DNA from: an uncultured Candidatus Poseidoniales archaeon
Lineage (GTDB): Archaea; Thermoplasmatota; Poseidoniia; Poseidoniales; Thalassarchaeaceae
DNA length: 64,000 nucleotides
Direction of reading: 5' to 3'
NCBI GenBank assembly: GCA_964386765.1
Contig: CAYLUC010000002.1
Span: forward strand, 2,202-66,201
In this document: positions 4,543-49,633 of the stretch, piece after piece
Layout of the letters: each line of letters opens with the position of its first letter
How positions within the stretch are numbered: the stretch's first letter is position 1
The notes under the pieces: model-generated
Told to the model about the DNA's origin: nothing
Seen by the model: the letters and a program-made list of their open reading frames with translations, nothing else
Database searches by the model: none
Translations under genes and position numbers: made by a program

Positions 4543-4778
4543 GCCCTAGGACGGGGGGCCTCCACGATTAACGCCGCCGGTTGAAATTGTCATTATCGGG
4601 GACACCTTCAAGAACCGCCGAGATAAACCTACCCTGCTTGAGGTGATGAAGTGCTGAGTCTTCCCCAAACCGCACACAGGAAAAATCCCCGTGCATCGCC
4701 TAGCCCAGCCCCCTCAGGGGCTGACGCTACGTCGACTCGAGTTTACTCAGCATATCGTCAGTAGGCGGAGTTGAGAAA

Positions 4779-6503
4779 ATGAGTGATGATGGAAAATATG
4801 CTGCACAGGTAGCTATGGTGAAGGAAGAATGCAAGGATGCCGATGAAGGTGAAATAGCCAAGGAATTCAAGAGGTATGAGGAGGAGTTCCTGATACCTCC
4901 TGGGGACGCATTAAGGTCCGTTATGAGGAAATTCCAGACAGAGGCGGGAATTGAAGTTACAAGCTCATCCTCGCCATCCACGCAACAGGCGGTGGAGAAG
5001 AAGGTAGAACGTTTCTCGGATCTGAACTCCGACGACAGGAACGTCACCATCGAGGTCGCGGTAATTTCCTACACCCCAAGGATGCAGAAAATGAAATCCG
5101 GGGAGGAGAGAAGGATAGCCTTCGGATGGATTGAGGATAATCCTTGGGAATCTAGCGACAAGAGGGAGCGTTGGGACTACAAGGACTGGGGCGACAAGAG
5201 CAAGGATCTGACGCCAGGCTCAATAGTCAGGCTCGAGGGCGTCTCCGTGAATGAATGGAATGAAAAGCGCTCAATCAACGTAAATAGCACGTCTCGCGTT
5301 ACCACACTCAAAGAGGGTGGTTCAGCAGTCCATCAGCCATCAGACGAACCCCTGACCATAGAGAAAGCATCAGCGACTGAGGGTTTTGTCAACCTCGTGG
5401 CAAGGGTCGTTTCCACAAAGCCCGATGTGATTGTGAAGAGGGACGGATCTGGCCAACTAAATGTCGTCAGAGGGAGGCTTGCAGACTCCACGGGGAGCAT
5501 CAGTATGCTTTCATGGGCTGATTTTGATTATGAGCCCGGCTCTTTGGTTAGAATAGAGGGTGCAACGATAAGGAGGTTCAGGGAAACTCCAGAGGTAAAC
5601 ATCAGTGATTCAACCACCGTCGAGGTCTATCACGACAATTCCTTTGCGAGCCTAGATCAGCTTTCTTCGTCCGTGAAGAGTAACATTTCCGATCTTAGGA
5701 ACGGGATGAGGGACGTTGAGATAACCCTGCAGGTTGAGACATGGAATCAGAGGTCGTTCACATCCAAGGATGGTACTGAGAGGGTCGTCCGAAGCGGCGA
5801 TGTGATGGATCCAACTGGACGTTGCAGGCTTACTGCTTGGTGTGATTTCGACCCGAAGCCCGGCGATTTCATCCACCTGAAGGAGGCCCGTGTTCAATCG
5901 TGGCAAGGCTCCCCTGATCTAGTAATAGACGACATCACCCAAGCTACGAATCTGGAAAACCCTGCTTGGGAGCAGATTGATCCGGAGGATCACTGGGTCG
6001 ACGTCGAACTTACCGATTTAGTGAGTGGTGGAACTAGAAGGGGGATAAGGACCAGTGGGACGATAGTCTTCGTTACCAACGACTCCGGCATAATAGAAAG
6101 GTGCCCTGAAACACTGCCTGACGGAAATAGAAAATGCCGGAAGAGGCTCAGGGACGGAAGTTGCATCGATCATGGAGCACAGAGAGGAGAGGAGGACTTG
6201 AGGATTCGGCTCGTTCTCGACAATGGTGTTTCGAACGTTTCTCTGCTGCTGTCGAAAGAGCCAGCGGAAGCCTTCCTCAAGATGTCACAGGCCGACGTTA
6301 CAGAGAAGATTTCCAAGGACGGCCAGGAGTTGTTCTTGGCGTCCATCAGGGAAGAGTCCCTCGGGAGGAAGGTTAGAGTAAACGGCCTGGCCCTTATCGA
6401 TGACCAAGGCGCAATGATACTAGCCGACAGCGCCACCTTGGATCAGGCCTCTGCTTCAGAAGCAGCTAATCACGTAATGCAGAAGTGGGAGGTGGCACTA
6501 TGA
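4779..6503 (+). CDS. rpa1: Replication protein A large subunit (RPA1-like ssDNA-binding protein, multiple OB folds plus zinc ribbon)
   Basis: 574 aa. Three to four OB-fold repeats, for example VNLVARVVSTKPDVIVKRDGSGQLNVVRGRLADSTGSISMLSWADF. A C-terminal Cys cluster (CPETLPDGNRKCRKRLRDGSCIDHG) is typical of RPA70-like zinc OB domains. There is an extra N-terminal domain of about 90 aa. Confidence 0.85.
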   Translation: MSDDGKYAAQVAMVKEECKDADEGEIAKEFKRYEEEFLIPPGDALRSVMRKFQTEAGIEVTSSSSPSTQQAVEKKVERFSDLNSDDRNVTIEVAVISYTPRMQKMKSGEERRIAFGWIEDNPWESSDKRERWDYKDWGDKSKDLTPGSIVRLEGVSVNEWNEKRSINVNSTSRVTTLKEGGSAVHQPSDEPLTIEKASATEGFVNLVARVVSTKPDVIVKRDGSGQLNVVRGRLADSTGSISMLSWADFDYEPGSLVRIEGATIRRFRETPEVNISDSTTVEVYHDNSFASLDQLSSSVKSNISDLRNGMRDVEITLQVETWNQRSFTSKDGTERVVRSGDVMDPTGRCRLTAWCDFDPKPGDFIHLKEARVQSWQGSPDLVIDDITQATNLENPAWEQIDPEDHWVDVELTDLVSGGTRRGIRTSGTIVFVTNDSGIIERCPETLPDGNRKCRKRLRDGSCIDHGAQRGEEDLRIRLVLDNGVSNVSLLLSKEPAEAFLKMSQADVTEKISKDGQELFLASIREESLGRKVRVNGLALIDDQGAMILADSATLDQASASEAANHVMQKWEVAL

Positions 6504-23774: not shown

Positions 23775-24721
23775 GGATAGCGATTCTCGGTGTCGGATCG
23801 ATAGGCACCGTGATTCTCGGAAGCCTGTCCGACACTGACGCCGAGATTGTGGCAGTCTCAAGGGGACAGAGGTTCGACGAGCTGGCCAATGAGGGAGTCA
23901 TCCTGCACTCTCCCGAGGGGTCCATTGAAGTGATACCTCCTGAGAGGTATGAGGCCGTTGACAGCGAGTCAGGACCGATTCCTCCGAGTTTGAGGAAGTC
24001 GTGCGACGCTATCGTCATCTCGGGCAAGTCCTCATCCACCCCAATCCTGTCTCAGATCGCGGAGGAGCTCCTGAGCGAGGGCGGAGTCGTGATGAGCATC
24101 CAGAACGGCATGGGGCACGCTGAGGTGATCTCCAGCAGGGTCGGAAGGGGCTCTGTGCTGGGAGGGACGACCACACATGGTGCTTGGACGGGGGAGTCTG
24201 GCAGTCATTGGGTGGGAAGGGGCTCGATCAGAATGGGGAATCTCGGTGGTGGACCTGCGAACGGGAGTGCTGAGTTGCTGTACCAATACCTGTCAGAGGC
24301 ATCTCTCAATCCAGAGTGGGACTTGGACATCCAAAGGTCAATCTGGACCAAACTCTTGGTCAACGTGGCAATAAACCCAATCTGTTCCATAGCAGGGGTG
24401 AGGAACGGGGCGCTTCTGGAATCTACATACTTGTGGGACCAAGCCCTGTCCGCTATGTCAGAGGCATCAGCGGTTGCTCAGGCATGCGGCGTGGATCTGG
24501 GCGATACCGACTTAGAAGACCTTCTCAGAGGGGTGGCCAAGTCAACTGCCGACAATAGGTGCTCGATGCTGCAGGATCTGATGTCGGGACGTAAGACCGA
24601 GATAGAGTCAATCTGCGGGGCTATTGTGAGCAAGGGCGAGGATGTCGGAATCCCAACGCCCCGGAACTCAATGCTGCTTGCTCTTGTGAAGGGAATCGAG
24701 TCGTCATCACACTTGGACTGA
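23771..24721 (+). CDS. panE: 2-dehydropantoate 2-reductase (ketopantoate reductase, PanE/ApbA family)
   Basis: The start ATG at 23771 overlaps the upstream stop (ATGA). N-terminal Rossmann fold MRIAILGVGSIGTVILG, and the conserved KLLVNVAINP and NRCSMLQDL..GRKTEIESICG motifs. Confidence 0.8.
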   Translation: MRIAILGVGSIGTVILGSLSDTDAEIVAVSRGQRFDELANEGVILHSPEGSIEVIPPERYEAVDSESGPIPPSLRKSCDAIVISGKSSSTPILSQIAEELLSEGGVVMSIQNGMGHAEVISSRVGRGSVLGGTTTHGAWTGESGSHWVGRGSIRMGNLGGGPANGSAELLYQYLSEASLNPEWDLDIQRSIWTKLLVNVAINPICSIAGVRNGALLESTYLWDQALSAMSEASAVAQACGVDLGDTDLEDLLRGVAKSTADNRCSMLQDLMSGRKTEIESICGAIVSKGEDVGIPTPRNSMLLALVKGIESSSHLD

Positions 24722-26380: not shown

Positions 26381-26492
26381 CCTAGAATCTTCGCAATGTT
26401 ACACTCTCCTTCGGCGTTTCGAAACGAGCAGGAGAAACGTTGTGCCGTGCTTTCGTATGCCTCAACATTCATAGGATAAAAGGCATGGAGCC

Positions 26493-26514
26493 GGCGATTA
26501 GCGTCGGCGAAAAT
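26493..26514 (+). promoter_or_regulatory. near-perfect 22-bp palindrome GTCGGCGAAAATTTTTGCCGAC, about 25 bp upstream of the smc start codon
   Basis: Dyad symmetry with one mismatch, centred on AAAATTTTT. It lies at a typical distance for a BRE/TATA or an operator of the smc-scpA-scpB operon. Confidence 0.35.
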
Positions 26515-26538
26515 TTTTGCCGACTCTTAGGTGATGGG

Positions 26539-29500
26539 ATGCATCTTATTCGAATTGAACTCGAGAACTTCAAGTCATTCGGAGGAGAGGTTGTCATTCC
26601 ATTTGACATGGGATTCACCGCTATCACTGGCCCGAATGGAAGCGGGAAATCAAATTGTGGGGACGCCATTCAGTTCGTTCTCGGACCCAAATCTACCAAG
26701 GCCCTCAGAGCATCAAATGTCTCAGAACTAATCTTCAATGGTGGAGGCAGGGGCAAGGCAGCCAAGCAGATGTCCGTAACTCTAGTTTTCGCAAATGTAC
26801 CAGAACACGATGGACAAAGAAGGCTAAGGGTTCAGGAGGACGAGGTCTCATTCACCAGGTCAGTAAGGCTGAATCGAAAGGGCGATCCAGTTTCATCGTT
26901 CAGGATAGGGGACAAACCGTCTACTGCCACAGAGATGCGGAGGGTCCTAGCTGAAGCAGGGCTTAGGGGAGATGGATACAATATCGTTCTGCAGGGTGAC
27001 GTCACTAATCTAGCCACCATGACCCCTCACAAGAGGAGAGGGGTGCTCGAAGAAGTCGCTGGAGTAACGGCTTATGACGATGAGATTCGAAGGGCGAACA
27101 ATCAGAGGAAGCATGTCGAGAATAGCATAGAGACAATAGATCTGCTAGAGGTCGACAAGAAGAAACAGCTCAAACAACTTGGGAAAGAAAGAGAGCAGGC
27201 TCTCAAATTCAGGGAGTTGAAGGAAGAGAGAGACAAGTCGAAGGTCACCCTTTACCAGTCTAGATACAGGAATAAAATTGACGAGGTCAAGTTGCTCGGA
27301 AATGAGAGATCGGACTACACGGATAGGGTGCGGGAACTCGACTCCTCAATAACAGAGGGAAATTCGAATCTTGTGAACTACGACGAAGAGCTCGTGAGAA
27401 TTGAGGCGGAAATTAGGGAAGTGCTAGCGGGAGACGCACAGAAGCTGATTCAAGAAATCCGTCAACATGAAATTGACATAGAGACGGGCTCCGATAGAAT
27501 CGGGGACCAGCGCAAGGTAATTTCCGAGTCAAAGGAAGAGGTCAATGTTCTGACGACTGAAGTGGAAAGGGCACACAGCGCGAGGAAGCAAGCAAGCGAC
27601 TCTCTGGATGAGGCTAACAACGCTCTTTCACTTGCTGACGAATCACTCATTCAGGCGTCCGAAGAAGAGAAGGAAGCTAGGAGGGCCATCGAGTCCGGCG
27701 ATAAGCATGCAAGAGACCTAAATCGAGCTCTAGGAAAGGCCGCCGATACAGTTTCTGCCGCTCAGGATAAGAACTCACAAGCTCAACTAGAGGCGGATAG
27801 GGCTTCTCAAGCATCCCAAATCGCCTCGGAGAATTTGGCAGATTTGGAGGAGAAATACGAGGAGGCCACAATGGTCAGAGACGATCTCGAACTTATCGGT
27901 GAAGACCTACGGGGCTCAGAAGGAGAATCTGACAGAGGGTCTCTGGCGGACGACTTCCGTAGGCTCCAGAAGCAGGAAAGCGAACTTAGGGCCGATAGAG
28001 ATAGATCTGAGACGAGACTAAGGGACGCAGAGAGAAACCTCAGCAAGGCCAAGGCGAGACAAGAGGCGAGATCCTCAGCACCCGGGTCAGCCCTAACTCT
28101 AGCAGCACTATCCAGACTAAGGGAGAGTGGACAGATCTCAGGTATTCTGGGCTCTCTAGGTGAGTTGACCTCACCGAAGGACCCCGCTCATGAGGAAGCA
28201 CTCGCAACAGCTCTCGGCAATGGACTAAGGAGCATAGTGGTGAGGGATGACGAGGTCGCCGCAAAGTGCATAGCATGGCTTCGCAAGAATAGTGGGGGAA
28301 GGGCTACTTTCTTGCCCCTCTCAAAACTAAAGTCATCAAGACCCCAAGGAAGAACGCTCCTTGTTGCTAGGAATCCAGGGATGATCGGTTTTGCCCATGA
28401 GCTACTCGACTATGACCAGGAGGTGGAGACAGCAGTTCTGTATGCCAGTCGAAACACGCTCTTGGTTGAGTCGATGGAAGTGGCAAGGAGGAATATGGGT
28501 GGAGTCAGGATGGTTACCCCTGACGGCTCTCTAATCGAGAGCTCCGGAGCAATGACAGGAGGATCTTCATCCAGGGGCAACAGGCCTTCATTTGGTGGTG
28601 GCCCAATTAGGAACTCAAGTCTGGAAAGGCTAGAAAGTGCAGTTCAGGAAGCGGATCTCCTCTATTCAACAGTGGATGCTGCACTGAGGGAGACCATGAC
28701 AAACATGCAATTACTCCGTGACAGGATTAATAATGTCGACGGAAGCGACCACTCTGTCAAGGTGAGGAATTGGAAAGCAGATATGGATAGGGCAACTAAG
28801 TCGGTAGCTGAGGCCGAGTCTAGGGTCATATCTGCAAAGTCCGAACTCGACTCCTCTGAGAAAACCAGGAAGGAGAAAGAATCCAATGCACTATCCGCTG
28901 AAGGCGAATTGAATGCAGCAATTGAGACTAGGTCACTGGCTGCAGAAGCGCTACAAGACAACACCCCTGATCACCTATCGGAGATCCTCAGGAAGGCCGA
29001 GCAGACAAGAACCAATGCTGAGAGAACCCGACTGGCGTCGGAGTCCTCCATCTCAATCAATCAAGAAAAACTCTCACTAATGGAAAGTAGGATTTCCGAG
29101 CTCGAGAGACAGCTCGACAAGCACAACACCGCCATAGAAAACGCAGAATCATCTATTACTACTCTCGAGAAATCCATCGAGAATTCCCGAAATGACCTTG
29201 AGGAACTTAAGACACAGTCCTCACAGTTCGATGAAGAGGAGAAAATACTGACAGACAAGAGGGACACTCTCTTCGAAGAGCGCGCAAGCCTCAGGGCATC
29301 ACTTGACAGCCTATCGAAGGAGAGGCAGACAATCAGGAGTAGAATCGATGAACTCAATGCACAGATTCAGCAGAAGAGGGAAGCTGTGGGCGAAACAGAA
29401 TCCGAGCTACTAGAGGCTGGTGTGGATATACCCTCTGAAGATGTACAACTACCAACAATTGCCGAGGCGGAAAGAGTGTTGCAGGGACTCGAACGCCGCC

Positions 29501-30465
29501 TCGGCAACCTAGGAGATGTCAACATGCTCGCCATTGAGCAGTACGATTCAACGGCAGAGAGAATTTCAGACCTGATGGAAGATGGCAAGACCCTAAGATC
29601 CCGCAGGGACCACTTAGTGTCCATAGCCGAGCAACTTGAGTCGGAGCGAAAGATGAGATTTATGACAGTCTTTGAGCATGTGAATAGTAACTTTAGCAGA
29701 GTCTACGAGATTCTTCAGCCATCAGGAAGTGGGAAACTCAGACTTGAGAACAAGAAGAATCCCTTCGACGGTGGATTGGACATGGCTTGCGTACCTCCCG
29801 GTAAGAGCAGAAACACAAGGAGATCCGCGCTTTCAGGAGGCGAGAAGTCAATGGCGGCATTGGCACTAATTTTCGCAATACAGGACTATGAGCCGAGTCC
29901 ATTCTACTATTTCGACGAAGTCGACCAGAATCTGGATCCATTCAACTCGGGTAGAATAGCCACCCTATGCAGAATAAGAAGTGAGAGGGCCCAATTTATC
30001 ATGGTGACATTGAGGAAGGTGAGCCTTTCTCTAGCTGACCATCACATCGGAATTACACATGCAGGGGACGGCTGCAGTAGAAGAATCACTGACTTCGATA
30101 GGGCTGCAGCAATAGAGCTCAGTGAAGAGCTAGAGGCAGAGGAGAAAGCCCAAGCCGAGTCCAAGGCAGAACTCGAAGCCATGCCTGAACTCCCGAAGCC
30201 CGAAGATATGCCGAAAGTCCCCGAACCTCTTGCCTCCCCGAAGAGCCTTGGTGGACTTGCTGACAGGGCTGGAGTCGAGGTCAATGGGGATGGGGAAGTT
30301 ACAGAATCGGAAAATAATGAGAGCAGTATAGAATCACTTAGGGAGAGGACCGAGGACTGGTCTGAGGACATCGAGGAAAGAAACCAGGTGGAGTTCCCTG
30401 ATGAGCCCCCCTCTTCAGAATCCGAGGTAGAAGAACTCCCGGAGGCCGAAGTAGAATCAGATTGA
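26539..30465 (+). CDS. smc: Chromosome segregation protein SMC
   Basis: The start is set at MHLIRIELENFKSF (ATG 26539), because the upstream part of the long ORF has no homology. Walker A GPNGSGKSN, long coiled coils, a hinge, and a C-terminal LSGGEKS signature with a Walker B DE. An acidic C-terminal tail of about 150 aa. Confidence 0.9.
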   Translation: MHLIRIELENFKSFGGEVVIPFDMGFTAITGPNGSGKSNCGDAIQFVLGPKSTKALRASNVSELIFNGGGRGKAAKQMSVTLVFANVPEHDGQRRLRVQEDEVSFTRSVRLNRKGDPVSSFRIGDKPSTATEMRRVLAEAGLRGDGYNIVLQGDVTNLATMTPHKRRGVLEEVAGVTAYDDEIRRANNQRKHVENSIETIDLLEVDKKKQLKQLGKEREQALKFRELKEERDKSKVTLYQSRYRNKIDEVKLLGNERSDYTDRVRELDSSITEGNSNLVNYDEELVRIEAEIREVLAGDAQKLIQEIRQHEIDIETGSDRIGDQRKVISESKEEVNVLTTEVERAHSARKQASDSLDEANNALSLADESLIQASEEEKEARRAIESGDKHARDLNRALGKAADTVSAAQDKNSQAQLEADRASQASQIASENLADLEEKYEEATMVRDDLELIGEDLRGSEGESDRGSLADDFRRLQKQESELRADRDRSETRLRDAERNLSKAKARQEARSSAPGSALTLAALSRLRESGQISGILGSLGELTSPKDPAHEEALATALGNGLRSIVVRDDEVAAKCIAWLRKNSGGRATFLPLSKLKSSRPQGRTLLVARNPGMIGFAHELLDYDQEVETAVLYASRNTLLVESMEVARRNMGGVRMVTPDGSLIESSGAMTGGSSSRGNRPSFGGGPIRNSSLERLESAVQEADLLYSTVDAALRETMTNMQLLRDRINNVDGSDHSVKVRNWKADMDRATKSVAEAESRVISAKSELDSSEKTRKEKESNALSAEGELNAAIETRSLAAEALQDNTPDHLSEILRKAEQTRTNAERTRLASESSISINQEKLSLMESRISELERQLDKHNTAIENAESSITTLEKSIENSRNDLEELKTQSSQFDEEEKILTDKRDTLFEERASLRASLDSLSKERQTIRSRIDELNAQIQQKREAVGETESELLEAGVDIPSEDVQLPTIAEAERVLQGLERRLGNLGDVNMLAIEQYDSTAERISDLMEDGKTLRSRRDHLVSIAEQLESERKMRFMTVFEHVNSNFSRVYEILQPSGSGKLRLENKKNPFDGGLDMACVPPGKSRNTRRSALSGGEKSMAALALIFAIQDYEPSPFYYFDEVDQNLDPFNSGRIATLCRIRSERAQFIMVTLRKVSLSLADHHIGITHAGDGCSRRITDFDRAAAIELSEELEAEEKAQAESKAELEAMPELPKPEDMPKVPEPLASPKSLGGLADRAGVEVNGDGEVTESENNESSIESLRERTEDWSEDIEERNQVEFPDEPPSSESEVEELPEAEVESD

Positions 30466-30474
30466 GGTGACAAT

Positions 30475-31476
30475 GTGGCAGTACTAGACGGTCAAGCAAT
30501 GAGGGATGACATAGTTTCCAGGCTCCTGGGGGGAGAGGCAGATTTGGCCACTAGCAAGTATCTGGATAGGATTTCAGAGTTAGCTTGCATGGAGGAGGCA
30601 GAACACCAATTCCTAATTGATCCATTTGACAGATCAGTGGCTCTGGTTTTTCAGATGTTCCAGTCAAGTGATTTGGATCCATGGGATGTCGACTTATCCT
30701 GCTTCCTCGAGATGTTTTCCAGCAGGATAGAAAATTCTGAAAACATCGATCTACCAACCTGTGGTCGTTTGATAAGGATGGCATGGTCAATACTCAAGGG
30801 ACAGGCATCGGACCTAATTGAGAGACAAGAAAGAGCACTCGACTTTGCAGATGAGGATGATAATTGGGAATTCGAGGGAGGGTGGGAGACTGACTTCGAT
30901 GATGCTGACTACAATTTCTCAGTCGGGGTCTTGTCAGGTGCCGCTGACGAGGTACTCCCATCAATGTTCGAAGGAAGAATCCACAGAGACGAGGGCCGCC
31001 CTGTAACTCTCGGCGAATTAATTCTCGGACTACAAGAAGCCGGGAGGCTTGCGGAGGAGCAGAGAATCAGAGAGAAGATTGCTGAGGAGAGGAGGGACGC
31101 ACTGTCCGTTGCAAGAAAGAGATTCAGTGGGAGTCTGCATGTCGAGGATTTAGAAGGGGACTTGGAAAGGACATGGGAGGCACTCATATCCAGGGCCAGG
31201 GGCAATGGAAGCAATATTTCCCTCGAGGATATCTCAAGTGAGTTGATGGACAGGTCGATGAATTCTGGAGTACAGGTCGAAGAGGCCCAAGCAGAAGCTC
31301 AGGTAACAGCACTGGTTTCCGCACTTTTCCTCACGAACAGGGGTTACACCGAACTGTCCCAGGAGCCTGGAAAAGATGGGACTATCACCCTAAAACCACT
31401 CTGGGAGGGCGATGAGACCTTCTCAGAATTAACAAACAGACTACACCCGAATGAAGGATCACTGGGGGGCCAATAA
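30475..31476 (+). CDS. scpA: Segregation and condensation protein A (ScpA kleisin)
   Basis: The DPWDVDL motif, an acidic central region and a C-terminal winged helix. It sits between smc and scpB. Confidence 0.85.
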   Translation: MAVLDGQAMRDDIVSRLLGGEADLATSKYLDRISELACMEEAEHQFLIDPFDRSVALVFQMFQSSDLDPWDVDLSCFLEMFSSRIENSENIDLPTCGRLIRMAWSILKGQASDLIERQERALDFADEDDNWEFEGGWETDFDDADYNFSVGVLSGAADEVLPSMFEGRIHRDEGRPVTLGELILGLQEAGRLAEEQRIREKIAEERRDALSVARKRFSGSLHVEDLEGDLERTWEALISRARGNGSNISLEDISSELMDRSMNSGVQVEEAQAEAQVTALVSALFLTNRGYTELSQEPGKDGTITLKPLWEGDETFSELTNRLHPNEGSLGGQ

Positions 31477-32102
31477 TGACTGAAGGACCACCCCTCTCTT
31501 CTCTACTGGAAGCCATACTCTTCGGGGCCGGACGTTCGATGTCAGTCGATGAATTGGCCAAACTCCTTGGAAAGAGAAACTTTCAGGTCTCTGAATCACT
31601 AGCTGAATTAAAGAAAGAGATGGAGGAGAGGGAGAAATCCGCTCTTCAACTATCGGAGGTAACTGGCAGGTGGATAATTGAGGTCAACCCGTCACTGTCA
31701 CAGTTCCTTCCCGACTCATTCAAACCCGAGATCCCACAAAGGCTCCTCCCTGCCGCCGCCCTGATTGCCTACCATCAGCCAATGCCTCAGGCACAACTAG
31801 TCGACATGCTCGGACAAAAAGCATACGACCATGTCAGGGATCTGGCTAACTTGGGGCTTATTGACAAAAGGAGGGAAGGCCTAACTCGGAGACTCACCAC
31901 AACCAGAAGGTTCGCCGAGTACTTTGGTTGCCCCGAAGTGGAATATCGAAAGGTCAAGGCATGGTTCAGGGGGGAGGCAGCCAAGTTGGGGCTAACTAGC
32001 GCCCAATTAGCCGCCTCACTAGCTCCTGAAGAGCAGATGACGATTGCCGAGTTCTCTGGCAATGAAGAAGTATCTGAGATCGAAGCTCAGGCCGAAGAGT
32101 GA
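31476..32102 (+). CDS. scpB: Segregation and condensation protein B (ScpB)
   Basis: LEAILFGAGRSMSVDELAKLL is the hallmark ScpB N-terminal winged helix. It overlaps the scpA stop. Confidence 0.85.
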   Translation: MTEGPPLSSLLEAILFGAGRSMSVDELAKLLGKRNFQVSESLAELKKEMEEREKSALQLSEVTGRWIIEVNPSLSQFLPDSFKPEIPQRLLPAAALIAYHQPMPQAQLVDMLGQKAYDHVRDLANLGLIDKRREGLTRRLTTTRRFAEYFGCPEVEYRKVKAWFRGEAAKLGLTSAQLAASLAPEEQMTIAEFSGNEEVSEIEAQAEE

Positions 32103-33440
32103 CTATTCCCCTCTTATTTCCGACAATGTCTTCTCCACTAATGCCATTGTTATCCTCTCACCGCCCTCCCTCACCTTTCTGGCCACGGCTTCTATTTCGT
32201 CGCCCTGTGCCCCGGAAGCAGCAACCATGTTCATGAGGTGCAATTTCATATGGCCTGCTTGAATTCCAACTGTGGCCAATGCTCTCAGAGCACCCAAATT
32301 TTGAGCTAATCCCGCCGCAGCCATGACCTTGGCAAGGTCATTCGCAGTTCTGAGCCCCAGGAGAGCCACGTTCGCCTGTGCACCAGGGTGAATTCTAACT
32401 GCTCCTCCCACTAATCCAACAGCCATTGGAATTTCTATAGAGCCGATAAGATTCCCATCTCCGTCCTTTTCCCAATGGGTCATTGAACCATATTCACGAC
32501 CATAGGCAGCATAGGAATGCGCTCCAGACTCTATCGCCCTCCAGTCCTGGCCGCACGCTATGGCGACTGGAGAAATGGCATTCATGATGCCTTTGTTATG
32601 GGTGGTCGCCCTGAATGGATCAGCTGCTGCGAAGTGATAAGCCTGAATCACCCCATCAATCACATCCGAGCCTCTTTTCGGGTCATCTCCTGAGTCAGAC
32701 ATCTCTTCGGGGGTGAATGTGGCACTCACCCTGGCCAGCCTGTGTACGGCTAGATTGCTGATGATTCTTAGAATAACAGTTCCTGATGACAACTCTTCAA
32801 TTCTGGGAGCTATTGTTTCAGCCATTGTATTGACAGCATTTGCCCCCATTGCGTCCCTGCAATCGACAAGGATGTGGACAATCACCATTGATCCAGAACC
32901 AGTTTCAATAATTCGAGCCTCTATGTCCCTACAGCCGCCTCCAAATTTAACTAGAATCGGGTCGACATCATTGCATGCGGCAATCAACTCCTCAGATGCA
33001 GACAATATGGAAGCTTTCGCAGCCTCAACATCTTCGCACCCTACGACTTGTATCTGGCCAATCATAACTGGCTCGTCGTTGTCCGACCTAAATCCTCCAC
33101 TAGCTTGGCATCTCTTGGCCATATTGGAAGCGGCCGCAACCACGCTCGCCTCTTCAACTACGAAAGGTATTAGGTAGTGCTCCCCATCAATGATGAAGTT
33201 CGTAGCAACACCTATCGGCAGCGAGTAAGTACCAATCACATTCTCAATCATTCTGTCCGCTGTCTCTTCATCAAGCTCTCCATTGGAAGCCCATGCGTCA
33301 ACCATGTCACTGTCCAGTCCGGCTATGCTAGCTAGCATATCCCTCCTCTCTGAAACGGATAGTTTGTAGAAACCCTTCAATCTGCTGTTGTCAACTGGCA
33401 TTGCTATCATTCCCTGTCGGCAGGAGGCGCCTTCTAACAT
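32103..33440 (-). CDS. hmgA: 3-hydroxy-3-methylglutaryl-CoA reductase, class II (bacterial type)
   Basis: DAMGANAVNTMAE, ENVIGTYSLPIGVATNF and GTVGG-like motifs, about 430 aa, like P. mevalonii MvaA. The start may instead be the internal MIAMP at 33410. Confidence 0.9.
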   Translation of the reverse strand: MLEGASCRQGMIAMPVDNSRLKGFYKLSVSERRDMLASIAGLDSDMVDAWASNGELDEETADRMIENVIGTYSLPIGVATNFIIDGEHYLIPFVVEEASVVAAASNMAKRCQASGGFRSDNDEPVMIGQIQVVGCEDVEAAKASILSASEELIAACNDVDPILVKFGGGCRDIEARIIETGSGSMVIVHILVDCRDAMGANAVNTMAETIAPRIEELSSGTVILRIISNLAVHRLARVSATFTPEEMSDSGDDPKRGSDVIDGVIQAYHFAAADPFRATTHNKGIMNAISPVAIACGQDWRAIESGAHSYAAYGREYGSMTHWEKDGDGNLIGSIEIPMAVGLVGGAVRIHPGAQANVALLGLRTANDLAKVMAAAGLAQNLGALRALATVGIQAGHMKLHLMNMVAASGAQGDEIEAVARKVREGGERITMALVEKTLSEIRGE

Positions 33441-33540
33441 TTTGCGGAAAGGCCTCTTCCAGATGCCCTTAGTTGAACCATCTCGAATTCTTCAAATGAC
33501 AGTGAATATTGGATCATTTCTCAAATTACCATGCTCTTTG

Positions 33541-33735
33541 GTTGCATTTTTCTCAAAATAAAGCGTTAATTTAGTCGTTAACGCTTTGTTAACGCATCTA
33601 TAAAGCGTTAGAAATACGTTAATGAATGATATTTGAAAACGATATACTGAATGAAAAATGTCTAATAATAATCCTTAGAAAAACGAAATAATACGTTAAT
33701 TCATTGTCTACTAAGCGTAAGTAAGCGTGAATGTT
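33541..33735. repeat. AT-rich intergenic repeat cluster (core GCGTTAA / ACGTTAAT in both orientations); candidate origin-recognition or regulatory repeats
   Basis: Copies are TAAAGCGTTAAT (33559-33570), CGTTAACGCTTT (33576-33587, reverse complement of the first), GTTAACGC (33588-33595), TAAAGCGTTAG (33601-33611), ATACGTTAATGAATGA (33614-33629), ATACGTTAATTCATTG (33691-33706), and tandem AAGCGT(A/G)A at 33713-33730. Confidence 0.45.
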
Positions 33736-33763
33736 ATGTACTCAACCACTAGACGGGTGGACG

Positions 33764-35623
33764 ATGGACCAGAGGGACATAGATCTTCTCGGCCTGCCTC
33801 CTTTGAGGGGAAACCCATTCGATTTGAGACCAATAGAAATTGAAAGAGCAGGAGACCTGGTTGGTAGAGATTATCTTCTTGCGAAATGGAGGGAGCACAT
33901 TGTCTCGAAGTCTCCGAGGATGGCGATACTCGTTGGAGACAGAGGATCAGGAAGGACTTCATTGATTCGAGCACTGGCATCCCAAACCAGCAGGAGCTTT
34001 GTTGGACAGTATTGGCCTGAGGAAGATCCCGTTGATTCAGTAATCAATGAGTTGACAATCCACTTCGGGGATTTTAACCCCCCCAAGTCAACTCAACTGA
34101 AGATAGATCGACTAGTGGGAAATCTAGGGCGTGAGTCCGAATCCCTCCCCTTGATAGTATTCGACTATCCCTCAGAAGTGGACATTTCACCGTTCCTCTC
34201 TCTTATTGCACCTGTCTTGCAGAGACTGAGGGCGTTCACGGTCGTTGTGTTGACTCCCTCCCAACTCTCATCCATCACTGAAGAAACATTGGGCATGTTT
34301 GACGATCCGGAGTTCCTCGAGGGGTTGACAACACAACAAATTCAGCAACTATCGGATAATCTGGTCTCACGCAGGGCCAAGGAGAAGTGGAAAATTAATG
34401 CAAGGTTGCTAGATGCAATTCGTGAGACTACGGGGGGAACTCCTCGTGACGTCATTAGGCTGCTAAGGGATCTCACGGATGAGAGGAGAGATGTGGGGTC
34501 ACATGGAACTCTGAAGAGGGTAATGAATTGGAGGGGCGATATTGTTGAGAATGAGGGTAGAACTAGTTTTGAGGACACTCCACAAATTGACGATACTTCA
34601 CTGCCCGAGATACTGCCAGAGGTCGCCAACCCTGATGTCACAGAATACAACGTAGATGTCGATAATCTCGCGAATAATGACGAAATAGTTGACGATTCTA
34701 CGACAGATTCCCCCGATTCCCCTGATTCATTCGAATATCTAGTGACGCCAGAAGAAGTGGCCAAAGAACCAGATCTAGAATTTTCTGAGGATATTTCTGA
34801 TGATCCAGAGGACCTCTGGGATGAAGTGGAAGATCATAGTGAACACAAACAAGAAAATATTCAGGCCCCAGAAAAACAAGGAACTCTCGAGGACTTCGTC
34901 TACGAACCCGGCACAGAGCCGCCAATGTTTGAAACTGGATTCGGTTTCAATCGCTTGGCGGCTAGATCAAGGAGCGCTCCCTCAAAGCCCACAACTTCAG
35001 ATGGAACTGAGATTATTGACGCCTCAAACTACCAATATCCCGAACCACGTAAAGCAGAACCACCGCCATTCCCCGAACCAACCGAAAATATCGTAGAGGA
35101 CGTTATTGAAGATTCATCAGCACCCATAGACACCACAGTAAGGTCAAATTCTGAATCAGGGGTCATGTCAACGGATTCGGCATATTGGTCAGTCGATGAA
35201 TCCTCGGCCTCAACTCTGCCCGATTTATCTCAAAATCCAATTCCAGAACCGCCCGGGGCAGTTTTTGGAATAGAAGAGGCCCCCCTCGAGGAATATTTGC
35301 CGGAAGAAGAAATTTCAGAACCAGTTGCCCCAAGGATAGCCCCCAGAATTTCAGTCTCTCCCAAGTGGGACTCAGATAATCCCCTTGACGAATCCAAATT
35401 AGGTTCATTGAATGAGGCAGAGATAATGATTCTAGAGGCATCAGCATCGAGGGAAATTTCTCCCTCTGACGCGGAACTTCAGGCCAGATTGGAGGTCGGA
35501 AGGCCAAGGCTGTCTCAGATATACAACGAACTATTCAGATCCGGTCTTCTTTCTGTTAGGAAACAGGGGAGAAAGAGACTTTTCAGGATTAGTGAAGCAG
35601 CGAACAGTCATTTTGGAGGGTAA
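33764..35623 (+). CDS. Divergent Orc1/Cdc6-like AAA+ protein with degenerate ATPase motifs, a long acidic disordered insertion and a C-terminal winged helix
   Basis: LVGRDYLLAKW...RMAILVGDRGSGRTSLIRAL aligns with LVGRDSELSEL...RAVIMGQVGTGKTVL of the canonical Cdc6 at 38116..39384, with the Walker A Lys replaced by Arg. PLIVFDYPSEVD is the Walker B equivalent and lacks the Glu. GGTPRDVIRLLRDL matches the Cdc6 sensor-2 motif G.AR.A..LL. Roughly 300 Asp/Glu/Pro/Ser-rich residues follow. The C-terminus (LSQIYNELFRSGLLSVRKQGRKRLFRI) is a winged-helix domain. Confidence 0.65.
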   Translation: MDQRDIDLLGLPPLRGNPFDLRPIEIERAGDLVGRDYLLAKWREHIVSKSPRMAILVGDRGSGRTSLIRALASQTSRSFVGQYWPEEDPVDSVINELTIHFGDFNPPKSTQLKIDRLVGNLGRESESLPLIVFDYPSEVDISPFLSLIAPVLQRLRAFTVVVLTPSQLSSITEETLGMFDDPEFLEGLTTQQIQQLSDNLVSRRAKEKWKINARLLDAIRETTGGTPRDVIRLLRDLTDERRDVGSHGTLKRVMNWRGDIVENEGRTSFEDTPQIDDTSLPEILPEVANPDVTEYNVDVDNLANNDEIVDDSTTDSPDSPDSFEYLVTPEEVAKEPDLEFSEDISDDPEDLWDEVEDHSEHKQENIQAPEKQGTLEDFVYEPGTEPPMFETGFGFNRLAARSRSAPSKPTTSDGTEIIDASNYQYPEPRKAEPPPFPEPTENIVEDVIEDSSAPIDTTVRSNSESGVMSTDSAYWSVDESSASTLPDLSQNPIPEPPGAVFGIEEAPLEEYLPEEEISEPVAPRIAPRISVSPKWDSDNPLDESKLGSLNEAEIMILEASASREISPSDAELQARLEVGRPRLSQIYNELFRSGLLSVRKQGRKRLFRISEAANSHFGG

Positions 35624-38115: not shown

Positions 38116-39384
38116 TCACTTCTGCCGCTTGGCAAACTCTTTCTCGATTCGACTCGCTATTCCTGCTGGTACTATGTTGGTCATAGTGATGTACTGTGTC
38201 CTGCCCCTCCCCACCGTAGAGTTGGCCGATCTCGTCTCAACCAGCCCCTGCTTCTCGAGGGTCTTCAGATGCTTCCAGAAAGTAGTATAACTTCTGGTTT
38301 TGAATTCGAACTCTTCACACACTAACTCATACAGCTTTCTAGCGTCGCCACTGGATACCTCTTCTTCCTTGCGCAGTCTCCTGCATATCCCCAGTAGGAC
38401 AAGTTTCTGATGGTCGCTTAACATGTCTATCTGACTTGGTTCGAGGGATGCCGTCCTTATCGTGCTAGGCGTCACGTCTTCAAGAAGAACCTCGCCTCTT
38501 CCAGCTTCCTCAGCCTTCCTAACCGCAGCTTCCAGGAGCTCTATGGCAAGCCTTGCGTCTCCTGTTTCCGCAGAGAATCTACCAATTTTTTCTAGAACCT
38601 CTATGCTAAACGAACCAGTCCTGCAGGATGCTTCGTAGCGCTGCCTTGCTATTCCAACAAGGGCCTCTGCGGAATATGGCTTGAGTCGAAGGACGCTGCT
38701 TTCTCCCAGCCTAGATATTATCGCCGGTTCCATTTGATCTAGCAAGTTATCGTCCTGGCTTACCAGGACTAGCGACAAAGAGCCATGTCCATCCTGACTC
38801 TCATCAATCCTCAGAAGTTTGTATATCAAATCATGACTATCTCGTCTGATCAGGACATCTACTTCGTCCAGTACTAGGAGAAGATGCCCCCCTCTGGATC
38901 TGATGTTCCTCCTTATCGATTGTATTATTTCTCCCGAACTGAAACCACGTTCTGGGTGTCTGGAGTCAAGTGAAATTGCAATCTGCTGAAGTACTTGTGA
39001 AGTTGATGGATGATTTCTGCAGTTAACATGGGAAACCACAATCCTCCTCTTGCCGTCTAGGGCCCTCATCAGGTCTTCCCCGAATCTTTTCGTGAGTACA
39101 GTTTTGCCGGTTCCCACTTGCCCCATTATTACAGCACGTCCACTCACTCCTTCGTTACCAATTCCAAGGAACATCGAAGCGAGCTCAGACAATTCCGAGT
39201 CTCTTCCCACTAATGTCGGAGGAGTCCAGTCGAATGACAACGGGACACGGTCTAGGAGGACCTTGCCCGCGCCAATCCTGTCTACTATGTAGTCCGCCAT
39301 CACACTAGTCGTACTAACGTCGTTCTTAGACATATTCTGAACGATGCCCTCGATGGTGCCAATTGCCTCATGGAACGAAGGCAA
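38116..39384 (-). CDS. cdc6: Orc1/Cdc6 replication initiation protein (canonical)
   Basis: Walker A GQVGTGKTV, Walker B LLLVLDEVD, sensor-2 ETGDARLAIELLEAA, and a C-terminal winged helix (QGLVETRSANSTVGRGRTQYI). Confidence 0.9.
   Translation of the reverse strand: MPSFHEAIGTIEGIVQNMSKNDVSTTSVMADYIVDRIGAGKVLLDRVPLSFDWTPPTLVGRDSELSELASMFLGIGNEGVSGRAVIMGQVGTGKTVLTKRFGEDLMRALDGKRRIVVSHVNCRNHPSTSQVLQQIAISLDSRHPERGFSSGEIIQSIRRNIRSRGGHLLLVLDEVDVLIRRDSHDLIYKLLRIDESQDGHGSLSLVLVSQDDNLLDQMEPAIISRLGESSVLRLKPYSAEALVGIARQRYEASCRTGSFSIEVLEKIGRFSAETGDARLAIELLEAAVRKAEEAGRGEVLLEDVTPSTIRTASLEPSQIDMLSDHQKLVLLGICRRLRKEEEVSSGDARKLYELVCEEFEFKTRSYTTFWKHLKTLEKQGLVETRSANSTVGRGRTQYITMTNIVPAGIASRIEKEFAKRQK

Positions 39385-44933: not shown

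Positions 44934-49633
<4,700 letters not shown>

What the first reader, a model, noticed from the sequence alone, without database searches (positions are those of the whole stretch)
33441..33763. Candidate replication origin: lone AT-rich repeat-laden spacer next to an orc1/cdc6-like gene
This roughly 320-bp spacer is the only long, strongly AT-rich non-coding stretch in 64 kb of otherwise tightly packed GC-rich sequence. It contains at least seven copies of a short motif (core GCGTTAA / ACGTTAAT) in both orientations. One copy pair is an exact 10-bp inverted repeat, AAAGCGTTAA (33559-33568) and TTAACGCTTT (33578-33587). Two copies of ATACGTTAAT are followed by mutually complementary hexamers (GAATGA / TCATTG), and a tandem AAGCGT(A/G)A pair abuts the downstream start codon. 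Archaeal oriCs are classically an AT-rich unwinding element plus origin-recognition-box repeats beside an orc1/cdc6 gene. Here the spacer directly precedes a divergent orc1/cdc6 paralog (33764..35623), and a canonical orc1/cdc6 (38116..39384) lies 4.5 kb away. Alternatively the repeats could be operator sites for a transcription factor controlling the divergent HMG-CoA reductase and orc-like genes.
Basis: partly seen in the sequence, partly recalled or inferred. Interest (0 to 1): 0.8.

Follow-up and report, generated by a model that had tools for sequence, protein, structure and literature searches.

The report
Conserved GCGTTAA box array, Poseidoniales
The AT-rich spacer holds eight rigidly spaced GCGTTAA boxes that recur in front of the same Orc/Cdc6-like gene in about 70 Marine Group II archaeal genomes, which makes it the best candidate for their unmapped replication origin, though origin activity is not shown.

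Summary
The spacer is the only stretch below 38% GC in 64 kb. It carries eight RCGTDA boxes within 175 nt, against at most two in any other 175-nt stretch. The organism is a Marine Group II archaeon (Poseidoniales). In 66 of 73 related loci the same array precedes the same gene with fixed gaps of 10, 5, 9 and 5 nt, then a 62-67 nt linker, then three boxes ending against a TATA-like element. The downstream protein (here "X619") has an initiator-clade AAA+ fold whose best matches are Cdc6 and Orc. Its Walker A and Walker B motifs are degenerate, and its winged helix is of the ArsR/MarR type. By sequence it is not an Orc1/Cdc6 member. The boxes are not canonical ORBs, and none occur in the window or near orc1 in the related loci. 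Local skew is uninformative, flanking genes converge on the spacer, and AT-richness is lost in a deeper-branching relative clade. The best reading is a cognate, autoregulatory docking array for X619. It is probably a non-canonical origin (about 0.4; about 0.5 including an Orc1-bound origin) and could be purely regulatory (about 0.3).

The parts
33402..33763 (.). Whole divergent intergenic spacer (33441-33763 if the longest HMGR ORF is used)
   Evidence: Only sub-38% GC stretch in 64 kb. In most of about 68 Poseidoniales loci the GC minimum lies at the homologous place.
32103..33401 (-). Class II HMG-CoA reductase gene. The start is probably 33401 (MPVDN), while the longest ORF starts at 33440.
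   Evidence: PF00368 at 350 bits and TIGR00532 at 424 bits. Conserved N-terminus in the loci. The distance from its ATG to box 1 varies from 101 to 230 nt.
33560..33570 (+). Box 1, AAAGCGTTAAT (core GCGTTA 33563-68)
33579..33584 (-). Box 2 (TAACGC), 10 nt after box 1. It overlaps a weak TCGTTA at 33575-80 on the + strand.
33590..33595 (-). Box 3 (TAACGC), 11 bp from box 2
33605..33610 (+). Box 4 (GCGTTA), 9 nt after box 3
33616..33621 (+). Box 5 (ACGTTA), 11 bp from box 4; end of module A
33622..33692 (.). AT-rich linker between the modules (about 23% GC here). It contains a weak box ACGATA at 33639-44 and a semi-conserved ACTG at 33646-49. This is the candidate unwinding or looping segment.
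   Evidence: Length fixed at 62-67 nt, while GC tracks genome GC from 0.12 to 0.52. Consensus.
33693..33698 (+). Box 6 (ACGTTA)
33715..33720 (+). Box 7 (GCGTAA)
33725..33730 (+). Box 8 (GCGTGA), 10 bp from box 7, abutting the TATA-like element
33731..33740 (+). TATA-like element ATGTTATGTA of the downstream gene. This is an inference. It lies about 27 nt before the ATG, which implies a leaderless or near-leaderless mRNA.
   Evidence: Consensus GCGTGAAtaTTAtGaACT in 64 loci. ATGTTA recurs at two other divergent promoter regions of the window.
33764..35623 (+). Gene X619 (619 aa). It has an AAA+ domain (residues 1-255), an acidic disordered linker (about 260-545) and a C-terminal winged helix (about 548-619).
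38116..39384 (-). Genuine Orc1/Cdc6, always syntenic with the array. It has no sizeable upstream spacer of its own.

Best explanation
The spacer is a lineage-specific nucleoprotein assembly site. It carries eight 11-bp boxes with consensus AAAGCGTTAAT.

**Layout.** Module A has five boxes in the order > < < > >, with gaps of 10, 5, 9 and 5 nt. A linker of fixed length (62-67 nt) follows and is AT-rich in this genome. Module B has box 6, then about 16 nt, then boxes 7-8 in 10-bp phase.

**Proposed mechanism.** The boxes are the cognate sites of the ArsR/MarR-type winged helix of the protein encoded immediately downstream (X619). The 10-11 bp phasing puts neighbouring winged helices on one face of the DNA. 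This would let the ATPase-degenerate, initiator-clade AAA+ domains, tethered by a long acidic linker, oligomerise over the array. Boxes 7-8 touch the gene's TATA-like element, so occupancy would feed back on its own promoter.

**Proposed role.** I take the complex most likely to be the Poseidoniales chromosomal replication origin, or its recognition module. It would be an ORB-less, non-canonical origin. X619 would supply sequence recognition, and the syntenic Orc1/Cdc6 4.4 kb away would supply MCM loading.

**Shown.** The array, its order-wide conservation and geometry, the protein's folds and degenerate motifs, the synteny, and the absence of canonical ORBs in the window and loci.

**Inferred.** That X619 is the binder, the autoregulation, the oligomerisation, and all origin activity.

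The binding-platform part I hold at about 0.75. The origin part I hold at about 0.4, or about 0.5 if an Orc1-bound origin is included.
For: - **Enrichment.** Eight boxes lie in 175 nt against at most two elsewhere. GCGTTAA occurs at 12.2 per kb in the spacer against 0.020 per kb in 1.18 Mb of flanks from 76 loci, and there is no second cluster.
- **Conservation.** CGTTAAT is present at least twice in 74 of 74 upstream regions. Box gaps are identical in 66 of 73 loci, and the distance between modules is 88-94 nt. This holds across locus GC from 38 to 63% and protein identity down to 36%.
- **Persistence.** The boxes persist upstream of distant homologues. They also persist in a clade that rebuilt module A as direct 11-bp repeats.
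- **Promoter link.** The array is in fixed register with the X619 TATA-like element. It is not in fixed register with HMG-CoA reductase.
- **Protein.**
  - Two helices lie between beta2 and beta3, as expected for an initiator-specific motif.
- **Origin context.**
  - This is the sole AT-rich spacer.
  - The order-wide synteny block includes orc1.
  - orc1 has no spacer of its own.
  - No canonical ORBs occur anywhere in the window or loci.
  - RPA1, SMC-ScpAB, gyrAB and the A-type ATP synthase lie in the same 64 kb.
  - In the related order Methanomassiliicoccales the ATP synthase genes lie close to the predicted ORB-bearing origin, which flanks orc1/cdc6.1 (PMC4153887).
  - cdc6 is usually adjacent to the origin in archaea (PMC2643942).
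- **Argument.** A single-copy DNA-binding protein conserved across the order, whose only detectable sites are at its own gene, implies that the complex itself is the functional product.
Against: - The boxes bear no resemblance to ORB or mini-ORB.
- I infer that 10-11 bp spacing is too tight for Orc1 monomers.
- Boxes flanking the AT-rich linker have the same orientation rather than being inverted.
- X619 has Walker A GSGR[TS] (K->R) and Walker B D-Y in at least 90% of members. It is therefore unlikely to be a conventional ATP-driven initiator.
- The GC of the linker follows genome GC, reaching 46-52% in GC-rich members.
- In a deeper-branching relative clade the spacer is not AT-rich at all (0.52 against 0.52 in L203), yet it keeps the boxes. 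The boxes, not a melting element, are therefore the ancestral feature.
- Skew at fourfold-degenerate sites shows no significant left/right change (+0.027 +/- 0.017). The cumulative-skew peak near 32 kb reflects gene orientation.
- Genes on both sides, including the ATP synthase and ribosomal or aIF2-gamma operons, point toward the spacer. This is head-on for forks leaving it.
- Only 64 kb of this genome could be searched for other sites.
- No binding data exist.
Confidence: 0.42

Rival explanations
1. The array is purely transcriptional. It is a multi-site operator through which X619, an Orc-like AAA+/winged-helix protein that has become a transcription factor, tightly autoregulates its gene. 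Modules A and B would be bridged by a DNA loop. X619 has other targets elsewhere in the genome, and replication starts somewhere else.
For: - Boxes 7-8 abut the TATA-like element.
- The fixed 88-94 nt distance between modules fits helical-phase-dependent looping.
- The winged helix is closest to ArsR/MarR/RosR transcription factors.
- The ATPase motifs are degenerate.
- The boxes persist where AT-richness is lost.
- The convergent gene orientation and flat skew give no origin signal.
- There is precedent. Sulfolobus Orc1-2 is a non-initiator Orc1 paralogue that binds a short motif in its own and other promoters (PMC9738581).
Against: - There is no second site in the 64-kb window or in 1.18 Mb of flanks.
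- The one intergenic single box, at 4568, is not conserved in three orthologous spacers.
- Eight sites with invariant geometry over 170 bp is far more than self-repression needs.
- A regulator seen only at its own gene explains nothing about why it is a core gene of the order.
Confidence: 0.3
2. This is the first reader's version: a classical archaeal oriC. The repeats are origin-recognition boxes bound by the canonical Orc1/Cdc6 (38116-39384), with an AT-rich unwinding element.
For: - The spacer is AT-rich and repeat-laden and is the nearest sizeable non-coding region to orc1.
- orc1 itself lacks an adjacent spacer.
- The Orc1 winged helix is as conserved as the boxes.
- cdc6 is usually next to the origin (PMC2643942).
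Against: - The boxes do not match the ORB consensus CTTCCAGTGGAAACGAAAGGGGT, which the related Methanomassiliicoccales retain (PMC4153887).
- Orc1 here has the usual GRGRT wing sequence.
- The 10-11 bp box spacing leaves no room for the roughly 20-30 bp footprint of Orc1. This footprint figure is from my own knowledge.
- No inverted ORBs flank the AT-rich stretch.
- The array travels with X619 and its promoter. It is not adjacent to orc1.
Confidence: 0.1
3. The array is another kind of chromosome-organising site. It could be a centromere-like or SMC-loading site, or a replication fork trap or terminus. X619 would coat the phased repeats, as in the arrangements where ParR binds parC or RTP binds the IR-I terminator upstream of its own autoregulated gene.
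For: - Arrays in 11-bp phase in two clusters next to an autoregulated promoter resemble R1 parC. This comparison is from my own knowledge.
- Genes converge on the spacer from both sides, as at a terminus.
- smc-scpA-scpB lies immediately left of HMG-CoA reductase in most loci.
Against: - SMC-ScpAB is absent from that position in one whole MGIIa group, loci L007-L017 and L069.
- There is no partition ATPase nearby.
- No fork trap is known in archaea.
- I infer that synteny of core genes across the whole order is more typical of origin-proximal than of terminus regions.
- The AAA+ fold belongs to the initiator clade.
Confidence: 0.1

Closest known systems
Archaeal oriC with ORB or mini-ORB repeats beside orc1/cdc6 (Pyrococcus, Sulfolobus oriC1/2; predicted in Methanomassiliicoccales, PMC4153887)
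   Same: Repeat-laden, AT-rich intergenic region flanked by divergent genes. It lies in a conserved neighbourhood containing orc1/cdc6, and the repeats reach into the promoter of an initiator-like AAA+/winged-helix gene.
   Different: The repeat sequence is unrelated to ORB. The boxes are 11 bp long and phased at 10-11 bp. No inverted pair brackets the AT-rich stretch. The adjacent gene is not Orc1/Cdc6 by sequence, and the real orc1 is 4.4 kb away inside an operon-like run of genes.
Sulfolobus Orc1-2, a non-initiator Orc1 paralogue acting as a DNA-damage transcription factor (PMC9738581)
   Same: The architecture is AAA+ with an initiator-specific motif plus a winged helix. The protein binds a short asymmetric motif in its own promoter, and its winged helix has diverged from that of the initiators.
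   Different: Orc1-2 is a clear Orc1/Cdc6 family member with intact Walker A and B motifs, and its ATP state controls its activity. It binds single 6-bp elements at many promoters. X619 has degenerate Walker motifs, a linker of about 285 aa, an ArsR/MarR-type winged helix and an eight-box array seen only at its own gene.
Bacterial oriC DnaA-box arrays with dnaA autoregulation (own knowledge)
   Same: An initiator-clade AAA+ domain is joined to a helix-turn-helix domain. Short boxes are arrayed in helical phase in opposed orientations with rigid spacing, next to an AT-rich segment. The same boxes repress the initiator's promoter.
   Different: There is no sequence relationship. DnaA is an active ATPase and its DNA-binding domain is directly attached. 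This comparison is an analogy of logic only.
Sulfolobus oriC3 with WhiP (own knowledge; mentioned in PMC3914693)
   Same: It is a precedent for an archaeal origin specified by a lineage-specific winged-helix protein encoded next to it, rather than by Orc1 alone.
   Different: WhiP is Cdt1-like with no AAA+ domain. oriC3 came from an integrated element, whereas this locus is inherited vertically across the whole order.
Plasmid R1 parC/ParR and Bacillus subtilis RTP/IR-I (own knowledge)
   Same: Clusters of short repeats in 11-bp phase, or opposed repeats, lie just upstream of and autoregulate the gene of the protein that binds them.
   Different: The protein folds differ (ribbon-helix-helix, or a small winged-helix dimer). 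No AAA+ domain is involved, and the systems are bacterial or plasmid-borne.

Membership tests
Archaeal ORB-type replication origin | Repeats matching the ORB or mini-ORB consensus (TTCCAGTGGAAA core, G-rich tail) | tested here: not met
   No match in the spacer. Hits in the window and in 1.23 Mb of loci are at chance level and show no positional clustering. Consensus taken from PMC4153887.
Archaeal ORB-type replication origin | AT-rich unwinding element | tested here: inconclusive
   Met in this window, where the linker is 23% GC and the 200-nt minimum is 27%. However, linker GC tracks genome GC up to 52%, and the spacer is not AT-rich in the deeper-branching locus L203.
Archaeal ORB-type replication origin | Recognition repeats in inverted orientation on either side of the unwinding element | tested here: not met
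   Boxes 4-5 and 6-8, which flank the linker, all point the same way. Inverted pairs exist only inside module A and are lost in the L048 clade.
Archaeal ORB-type replication origin | Immediately adjacent orc1/cdc6 gene | tested here: inconclusive
   The genuine orc1 is 4.4 kb away in all loci. The adjacent gene is Orc/Cdc6-like only at fold level.
Archaeal ORB-type replication origin | Strand-composition switch or replication-profile peak at the site | tested here: inconclusive
   The side effect on skew at fourfold-degenerate sites is +0.027 +/- 0.017 over 64 kb, which is not significant. Whole-chromosome skew and read-depth profiles were not available.
Archaeal ORB-type replication origin | Initiator binding and origin firing | not testable with these tools
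   Requires EMSA, ChIP or marker-frequency analysis.
Orc1/Cdc6 protein family (for the 33764-35623 gene) | Initiator-clade AAA+ fold with lid domain and initiator-specific motif | tested here: met
Orc1/Cdc6 protein family (for the 33764-35623 gene) | Significant match to family models (TIGR02928, Cdc6_lid, Cdc6_C) or to a profile of genuine Orc1 | tested here: not met
   Only AAA_16 at 24.5 bits (cutoff 32.6) and AAA_22 at 20 bits (cutoff 27). No Orc1 NCBIfam match. The PDB profile search finds no Orc. hhalign against 56 co-resident Orc1 sequences gives 25% probability over 36 columns. A profile search of 1.84 billion proteins returns only 188 hits.
Orc1/Cdc6 protein family (for the 33764-35623 gene) | Intact Walker A (GxxGxGK[ST]) and Walker B (hhhhDE) | tested here: not met
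   Walker A reads G-x-x-G-S-G-R-[TS] and Walker B reads L-D-Y-P, each conserved in at least 90% of 56 members. A sensor-2-like GxPR motif is retained.
Orc1/Cdc6 protein family (for the 33764-35623 gene) | C-terminal Cdc6-type winged-helix domain directly after the lid | tested here: not met
Autoregulatory operator of a winged-helix transcription factor | Binding sites overlapping or abutting the core promoter of the regulator's own gene | tested here: met
   Box 8 is contiguous with the conserved TATA-like element about 27 nt before the ATG in 64 loci. The assignment of this element as the promoter is inferred.
Autoregulatory operator of a winged-helix transcription factor | The same motif at promoters of other genes (a regulon) | tested here: not met
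   No other cluster occurs in 64 kb plus 1.18 Mb of flanks. The single intergenic box at 4568 is not conserved. Only about 3% of a genome could be searched.

The most novel reading that the evidence does not exclude
Poseidoniales start chromosome replication at an ORB-less origin defined by a new initiator-type pair. One partner is an array of eight GCGTTAA boxes in 11-bp phase. The other is a lineage-specific, ATPase-dead, Orc/Cdc6-fold AAA+ protein that reads the boxes through a transcription-factor-type winged helix on a long acidic tether. The canonical Orc1, encoded 4.4 kb away without any ORB, would be recruited secondarily. This logic is closer to that of bacterial DnaA and oriC than to that of any described archaeal origin.
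Probability: 0.3. Interest if true: 0.85.

Novelty: new variant of a known kind. Interest (0 to 1): 0.66.

Why it matters
Marine Group II archaea are among the most abundant planktonic archaea and remain uncultured.

- **No origin is described.** My literature searches found no described origin, origin motif or initiator site for this group.
- **A sequence-defined marker.** A conserved origin marker would let growth rates be read from metagenomic coverage. It would also anchor genome assemblies.
- **A test case for origin recognition.** It would give a case in which origin recognition has moved away from the near-universal Orc1-ORB pair.
- **Value even without origin function.** The locus defines a new, narrowly distributed family of Orc-fold, ATPase-degenerate DNA-binding proteins. 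Their cognate site is known to the base pair, which makes the system directly testable in vitro.

Tried and rejected
- **Structured RNA in the spacer.** Rejected. All Rfam hits are far below the gathering scores.
- **Canonical ORBs in the window or loci.** Found only at chance level.
- **GC-skew peak near 32 kb as origin evidence.** Rejected. After separating gene strand from side, the side effect is not significant.
- **Link to viruses or mobile elements.** The viral-contig scan for TTAACGC-N5-TTAACGC gave only chance matches and coding repeats.
- **Metagenome scan for three direct boxes.** 13 of the 120 loci returned are X619 spacers with the usual synteny. Most of the rest that I inspected are unrelated iteron-like tandem arrays with an 11-bp period, which are not informative.
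- **Regulon candidate.** The single GCGTTAA between the MogA-like and RPA1 genes (4568) is not conserved in three orthologous spacers.
- **Telling X619 and Orc1 apart by winged-helix conservation or co-variation with box variants.** Both winged helices are highly conserved and both carry clade-specific changes, so the test does not discriminate.
- **PCNA-binding motif in the linker (QGTLDDFVY).** It is present in only part of the family, so the lead is weak.
- **SMC-loading idea.** Weakened because smc-scpAB is not at this position in one MGIIa group.
- **Apparent 932-nt gene-free gap at 23775-24706.** This was an artefact of my gene picking. A 343-aa ORF fills it.
- **AFDB fold search.** The library was not available.
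Full report
**Observation**

Region 33441-33763 is 34% GC in a window of 51% GC. It is the only place where a 200-nt window drops below 38% GC, with a minimum of 27%. A rough gene map gives 94.6% coding density, and this is the only AT-rich gap.

Written as RCGTDA, it occurs eight times between 33563 and 33730, while no other 175-nt stretch of the window has more than two copies. The Poisson probability is about 1e-12. Shuffles of the spacer give a mean of 0.85 copies and a maximum of 7 in 20,000 trials.

There are minor slips:
- One repeat arm is off by one base.
- One "complementary hexamer" pair matches at 5 of 6 positions.
- The ATG at 33731 that the tandem pair abuts is not the start codon. 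Homologues and public gene calls start at 33764.
- The HMG-CoA reductase start is probably 33401.

**Organism and conservation**

The downstream protein, which I call X619 (619 aa), has hundreds of homologues in marine metagenomes. A scan of species-representative genomes returned 80 loci, all Poseidoniales (Marine Group II, both IIa and IIb), with protein identity from 84% down to 36%.

- In most of about 68 long loci, the GC minimum of the 18-kb locus sits directly upstream of the X619 homologue.
- CGTTAAT occurs at least twice in 74 of 74 upstream regions, and GCGTTAA in 71 of 74.
- Across 76 loci, GCGTTAA occurs at 12.2 per kb in the spacer against 0.020 per kb in 1.18 Mb of flanking DNA. 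There is no second cluster.

**Architecture**

The array has a fixed architecture.

- Module A reads AAAGCGTTAAT-N7-TTAACGC-N5-TTAACGCAT-N6-AAAGCGTTAG-N4-GCGTTAAT. The gaps between box cores are 10, 5, 9 and 5 nt in 66 of 73 loci.
- A linker of 62-67 nt follows.
- Module B has box 6, about 16 nt, then GCGTAA-N4-GCGTGAA. This runs straight into a conserved TATTATGAACT-like element about 27 nt before the ATG.
- One clade (L048, L050, L051, L055, L068, plus 13 metagenome contigs) has rebuilt module A as four or five direct ACGTTAAT repeats at exactly 11 bp.
- Distant homologues, with profile E-values of 1e-33 to 1e-55 and an extra 348-aa gene downstream, still carry three to five boxes. Their spacer is no longer AT-rich, for example 0.52 against a locus GC of 0.52 in L203.

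The boxes and their helical phasing are therefore the selected features. AT-richness is secondary. Linker GC tracks genome GC (r = 0.83, range 0.12-0.52) and averages 18 points below the locus.

**Relation to the flanking promoters**

The array is locked to the X619 promoter. Its distance to the HMG-CoA reductase ATG varies from 101 to 230 nt. ATGTTA-type elements also occur at the HMG-CoA reductase promoter and at the promoter region upstream of smc in this window. This supports reading 33731-33740 as a TATA-like box, and hence a leaderless or near-leaderless mRNA. That reading is an inference.

**The protein**

- **Family models.** Pfam gives only sub-threshold AAA_16 and AAA_22 hits. NCBIfam gives a weak ArsR-type helix-turn-helix at the C-terminus.
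- **Sequence features.** Alignment shows a conserved N-terminal domain of about 255 aa and an acidic, poorly conserved linker of about 285 aa with a few short conserved motifs. The last 70 residues are nearly invariant (ELQARLEVGRPRLSQIYN...LSVRKQGRKRLF).
- **ATPase motifs.** Walker A is GSGR[TS] (lysine replaced by arginine) and Walker B is D-Y-P, in at least 90% of members. A sensor-2-like GxPR is retained.
- **C-terminal fold.** The model (pLDDT 81) is an ArsR/MarR/RosR-type winged helix. No Cdc6 winged helix appears among the top 60 matches.
- **Sequence-profile tests.** A profile-profile comparison with the Orc1 of the same genomes aligns only the P-loop stretch, at 25% probability. A profile search of 1.84 billion representative proteins returns 188 hits and does not reach the Orc1/Cdc6 family.

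X619 therefore has Orc/Cdc6-like architecture and fold but is not a demonstrable Orc1/Cdc6 paralogue. It is unlikely to be an active ATPase.

**Genomic context**

The block of HMG-CoA reductase (leftward), then X619 and DUF357 (rightward), then PIN, aIF2-gamma, S6e, Orc1, Dph2 and a phosphoribosyltransferase (all leftward) is conserved in essentially every locus. smc-scpA-scpB lies to the left in most loci but not in one MGIIa group.

The genuine Orc1 exceeds the TIGR02928 cutoff and has Cdc6_lid and Cdc6_C domains. It has at most about 50-290 nt upstream, with no repeats of ORB type.

The window also holds RPA1, the A-type ATP synthase operon and gyrA/gyrB. In the related order Methanomassiliicoccales, canonical ORBs flank orc1/cdc6.1 and the ATP synthase genes lie nearby (PMC4153887). 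Here no canonical ORB is found in the window or in any locus.

**Tests bearing on an origin**

- **Skew.** The cumulative GC skew of the window peaks near 32 kb. A regression at fourfold-degenerate sites attributes this to gene strand (-0.114 +/- 0.017). The left/right effect is +0.027 +/- 0.017.
- **Gene orientation.** Genes on both sides mostly point toward the spacer, 19 of 28 on the left and 19 of 24 on the right. This is opposite to the co-orientation expected around an origin, although only a few operons account for it.
- **Other elements.** No Rfam family and no viral association were found.
- **Stray box.** The single intergenic box elsewhere in the window is not conserved.

**Interpretation**

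What is secure is that this is a strongly selected protein-binding array tied to the X619 gene and its promoter. The most economical binder is X619's own invariant winged helix. The phasing suggests side-by-side binding on one DNA face, and boxes 7-8 should repress the promoter.

A core, single-copy DNA-binding protein whose only visible sites are at its own gene suggests that the complex itself is the product.

For an origin:
- The orc1 synteny, the lack of any ORB and the initiator-clade fold.
- The concentration of chromosome-maintenance genes.
- The general rule that archaeal origins sit by cdc6 (PMC2643942).

Against an origin:
- The non-ORB boxes, their tight spacing and the same-direction boxes flanking the linker.
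- The degenerate ATPase motifs.
- The loss of AT-richness in relatives.
- The convergent gene orientation.
- The precedent of Orc1-2 as a pure transcription factor (PMC9738581).

My estimates are:

| Reading | Probability |
|---|---|
| Binding platform for X619 | about 0.75 |
| Origin with X619 as recogniser | about 0.4 |
| Classical Orc1-bound origin | about 0.1 |
| Purely regulatory | about 0.3 |
| Other chromosome-organising role | about 0.1 |

**Novelty**

I found no description of this array, this protein family, or any Marine Group II origin in the searchable literature. It is best filed as a new variant of a known kind: either an origin or an Orc-like regulator with its site. Whole-chromosome skew, metagenomic read-depth profiles and a simple EMSA would settle which.

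Noticed in passing
L073:16718-16814, L061:15888-15982, L078:17174-17464, L032, L039 and L064 (upstream of orc1 in MGIIb loci): A conserved GC-rich imperfect palindrome (CGCGCGCGTCACAgacGCGTGTATGCGCGCGCG) lies just upstream of orc1. It is followed by GCAGCAAATATCTCTAAGAACG. It is probably an orc1 promoter with an operator. It is absent from this window's MGIIa lineage, where the homologous stretch is read as the N-terminus of the ORF.
   Followed up: partly
window 4640-4677: A 38-nt element, GAGGTGATGAAGTGCTGAGTCTTCCCCAAACCGCAC, lies in the spacer between the MogA-like and RPA1 genes. It is nearly invariant across MGIIa and MGIIb orthologous spacers, while its flanks diverge. It contains sequences resembling C-box (GTGATGA) and D-box (CTGA) motifs. 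There is no Rfam match.
   Followed up: partly
window 4779-6503, 26440-32102, 38116-39384 and 44934-49630: Chromosome-maintenance genes are concentrated within one 64-kb window: RPA1, SMC-ScpA-ScpB, Orc1, and bacterial-type gyrA/gyrB. The A-type ATP synthase operon lies at 12.9-21.2 kb.
   Followed up: partly
window 33401-33440: The longest HMG-CoA reductase ORF starts at 33440. Homologous loci conserve only the sequence from MPVDN onward, so the true start is probably 33401. A conserved TTAGAA/ATGTTA element at about 33430-33438 (minus strand) is probably its TATA-like box.
   Followed up: partly
L061:10304-12518, L073:10391-13347 and L078:10486-13804: Some MGIIb genomes carry 2-3 kb insertions between DUF357 and the PIN gene. 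These contain their own AT-rich minima (for example at about 11089 in L073 and about 11783 in L078). They hold no GCGTTAA clusters. I did not examine their content.
   Followed up: no
L081:2026-3057, L203:9896-10945, L204:6640-7686 and L202:1932-2972: The deeper-branching homologues of X619 are followed by an extra gene of about 345 aa with no Pfam match. It is inserted before DUF357 and appears translationally coupled to X619.
   Followed up: no
L225, L226, L227, L251, L252, L293, L296 and L300 (metagenome contigs): Unrelated contigs carry long tandem arrays with an 11-bp period built on a CGTTAA core, with up to about 22 copies in L225. They resemble plasmid or phage iterons. No X619 or its syntenic genes are nearby.
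   Followed up: partly
window 34870-34900 (X619 residues about 370-380): The linker motif QGTLDDFVY resembles an archaeal PCNA-interacting peptide. It is conserved only in MGIIa and part of MGIIb. Other clades have ETELF or DGYFW followed by EPGTEPP.
   Followed up: partly
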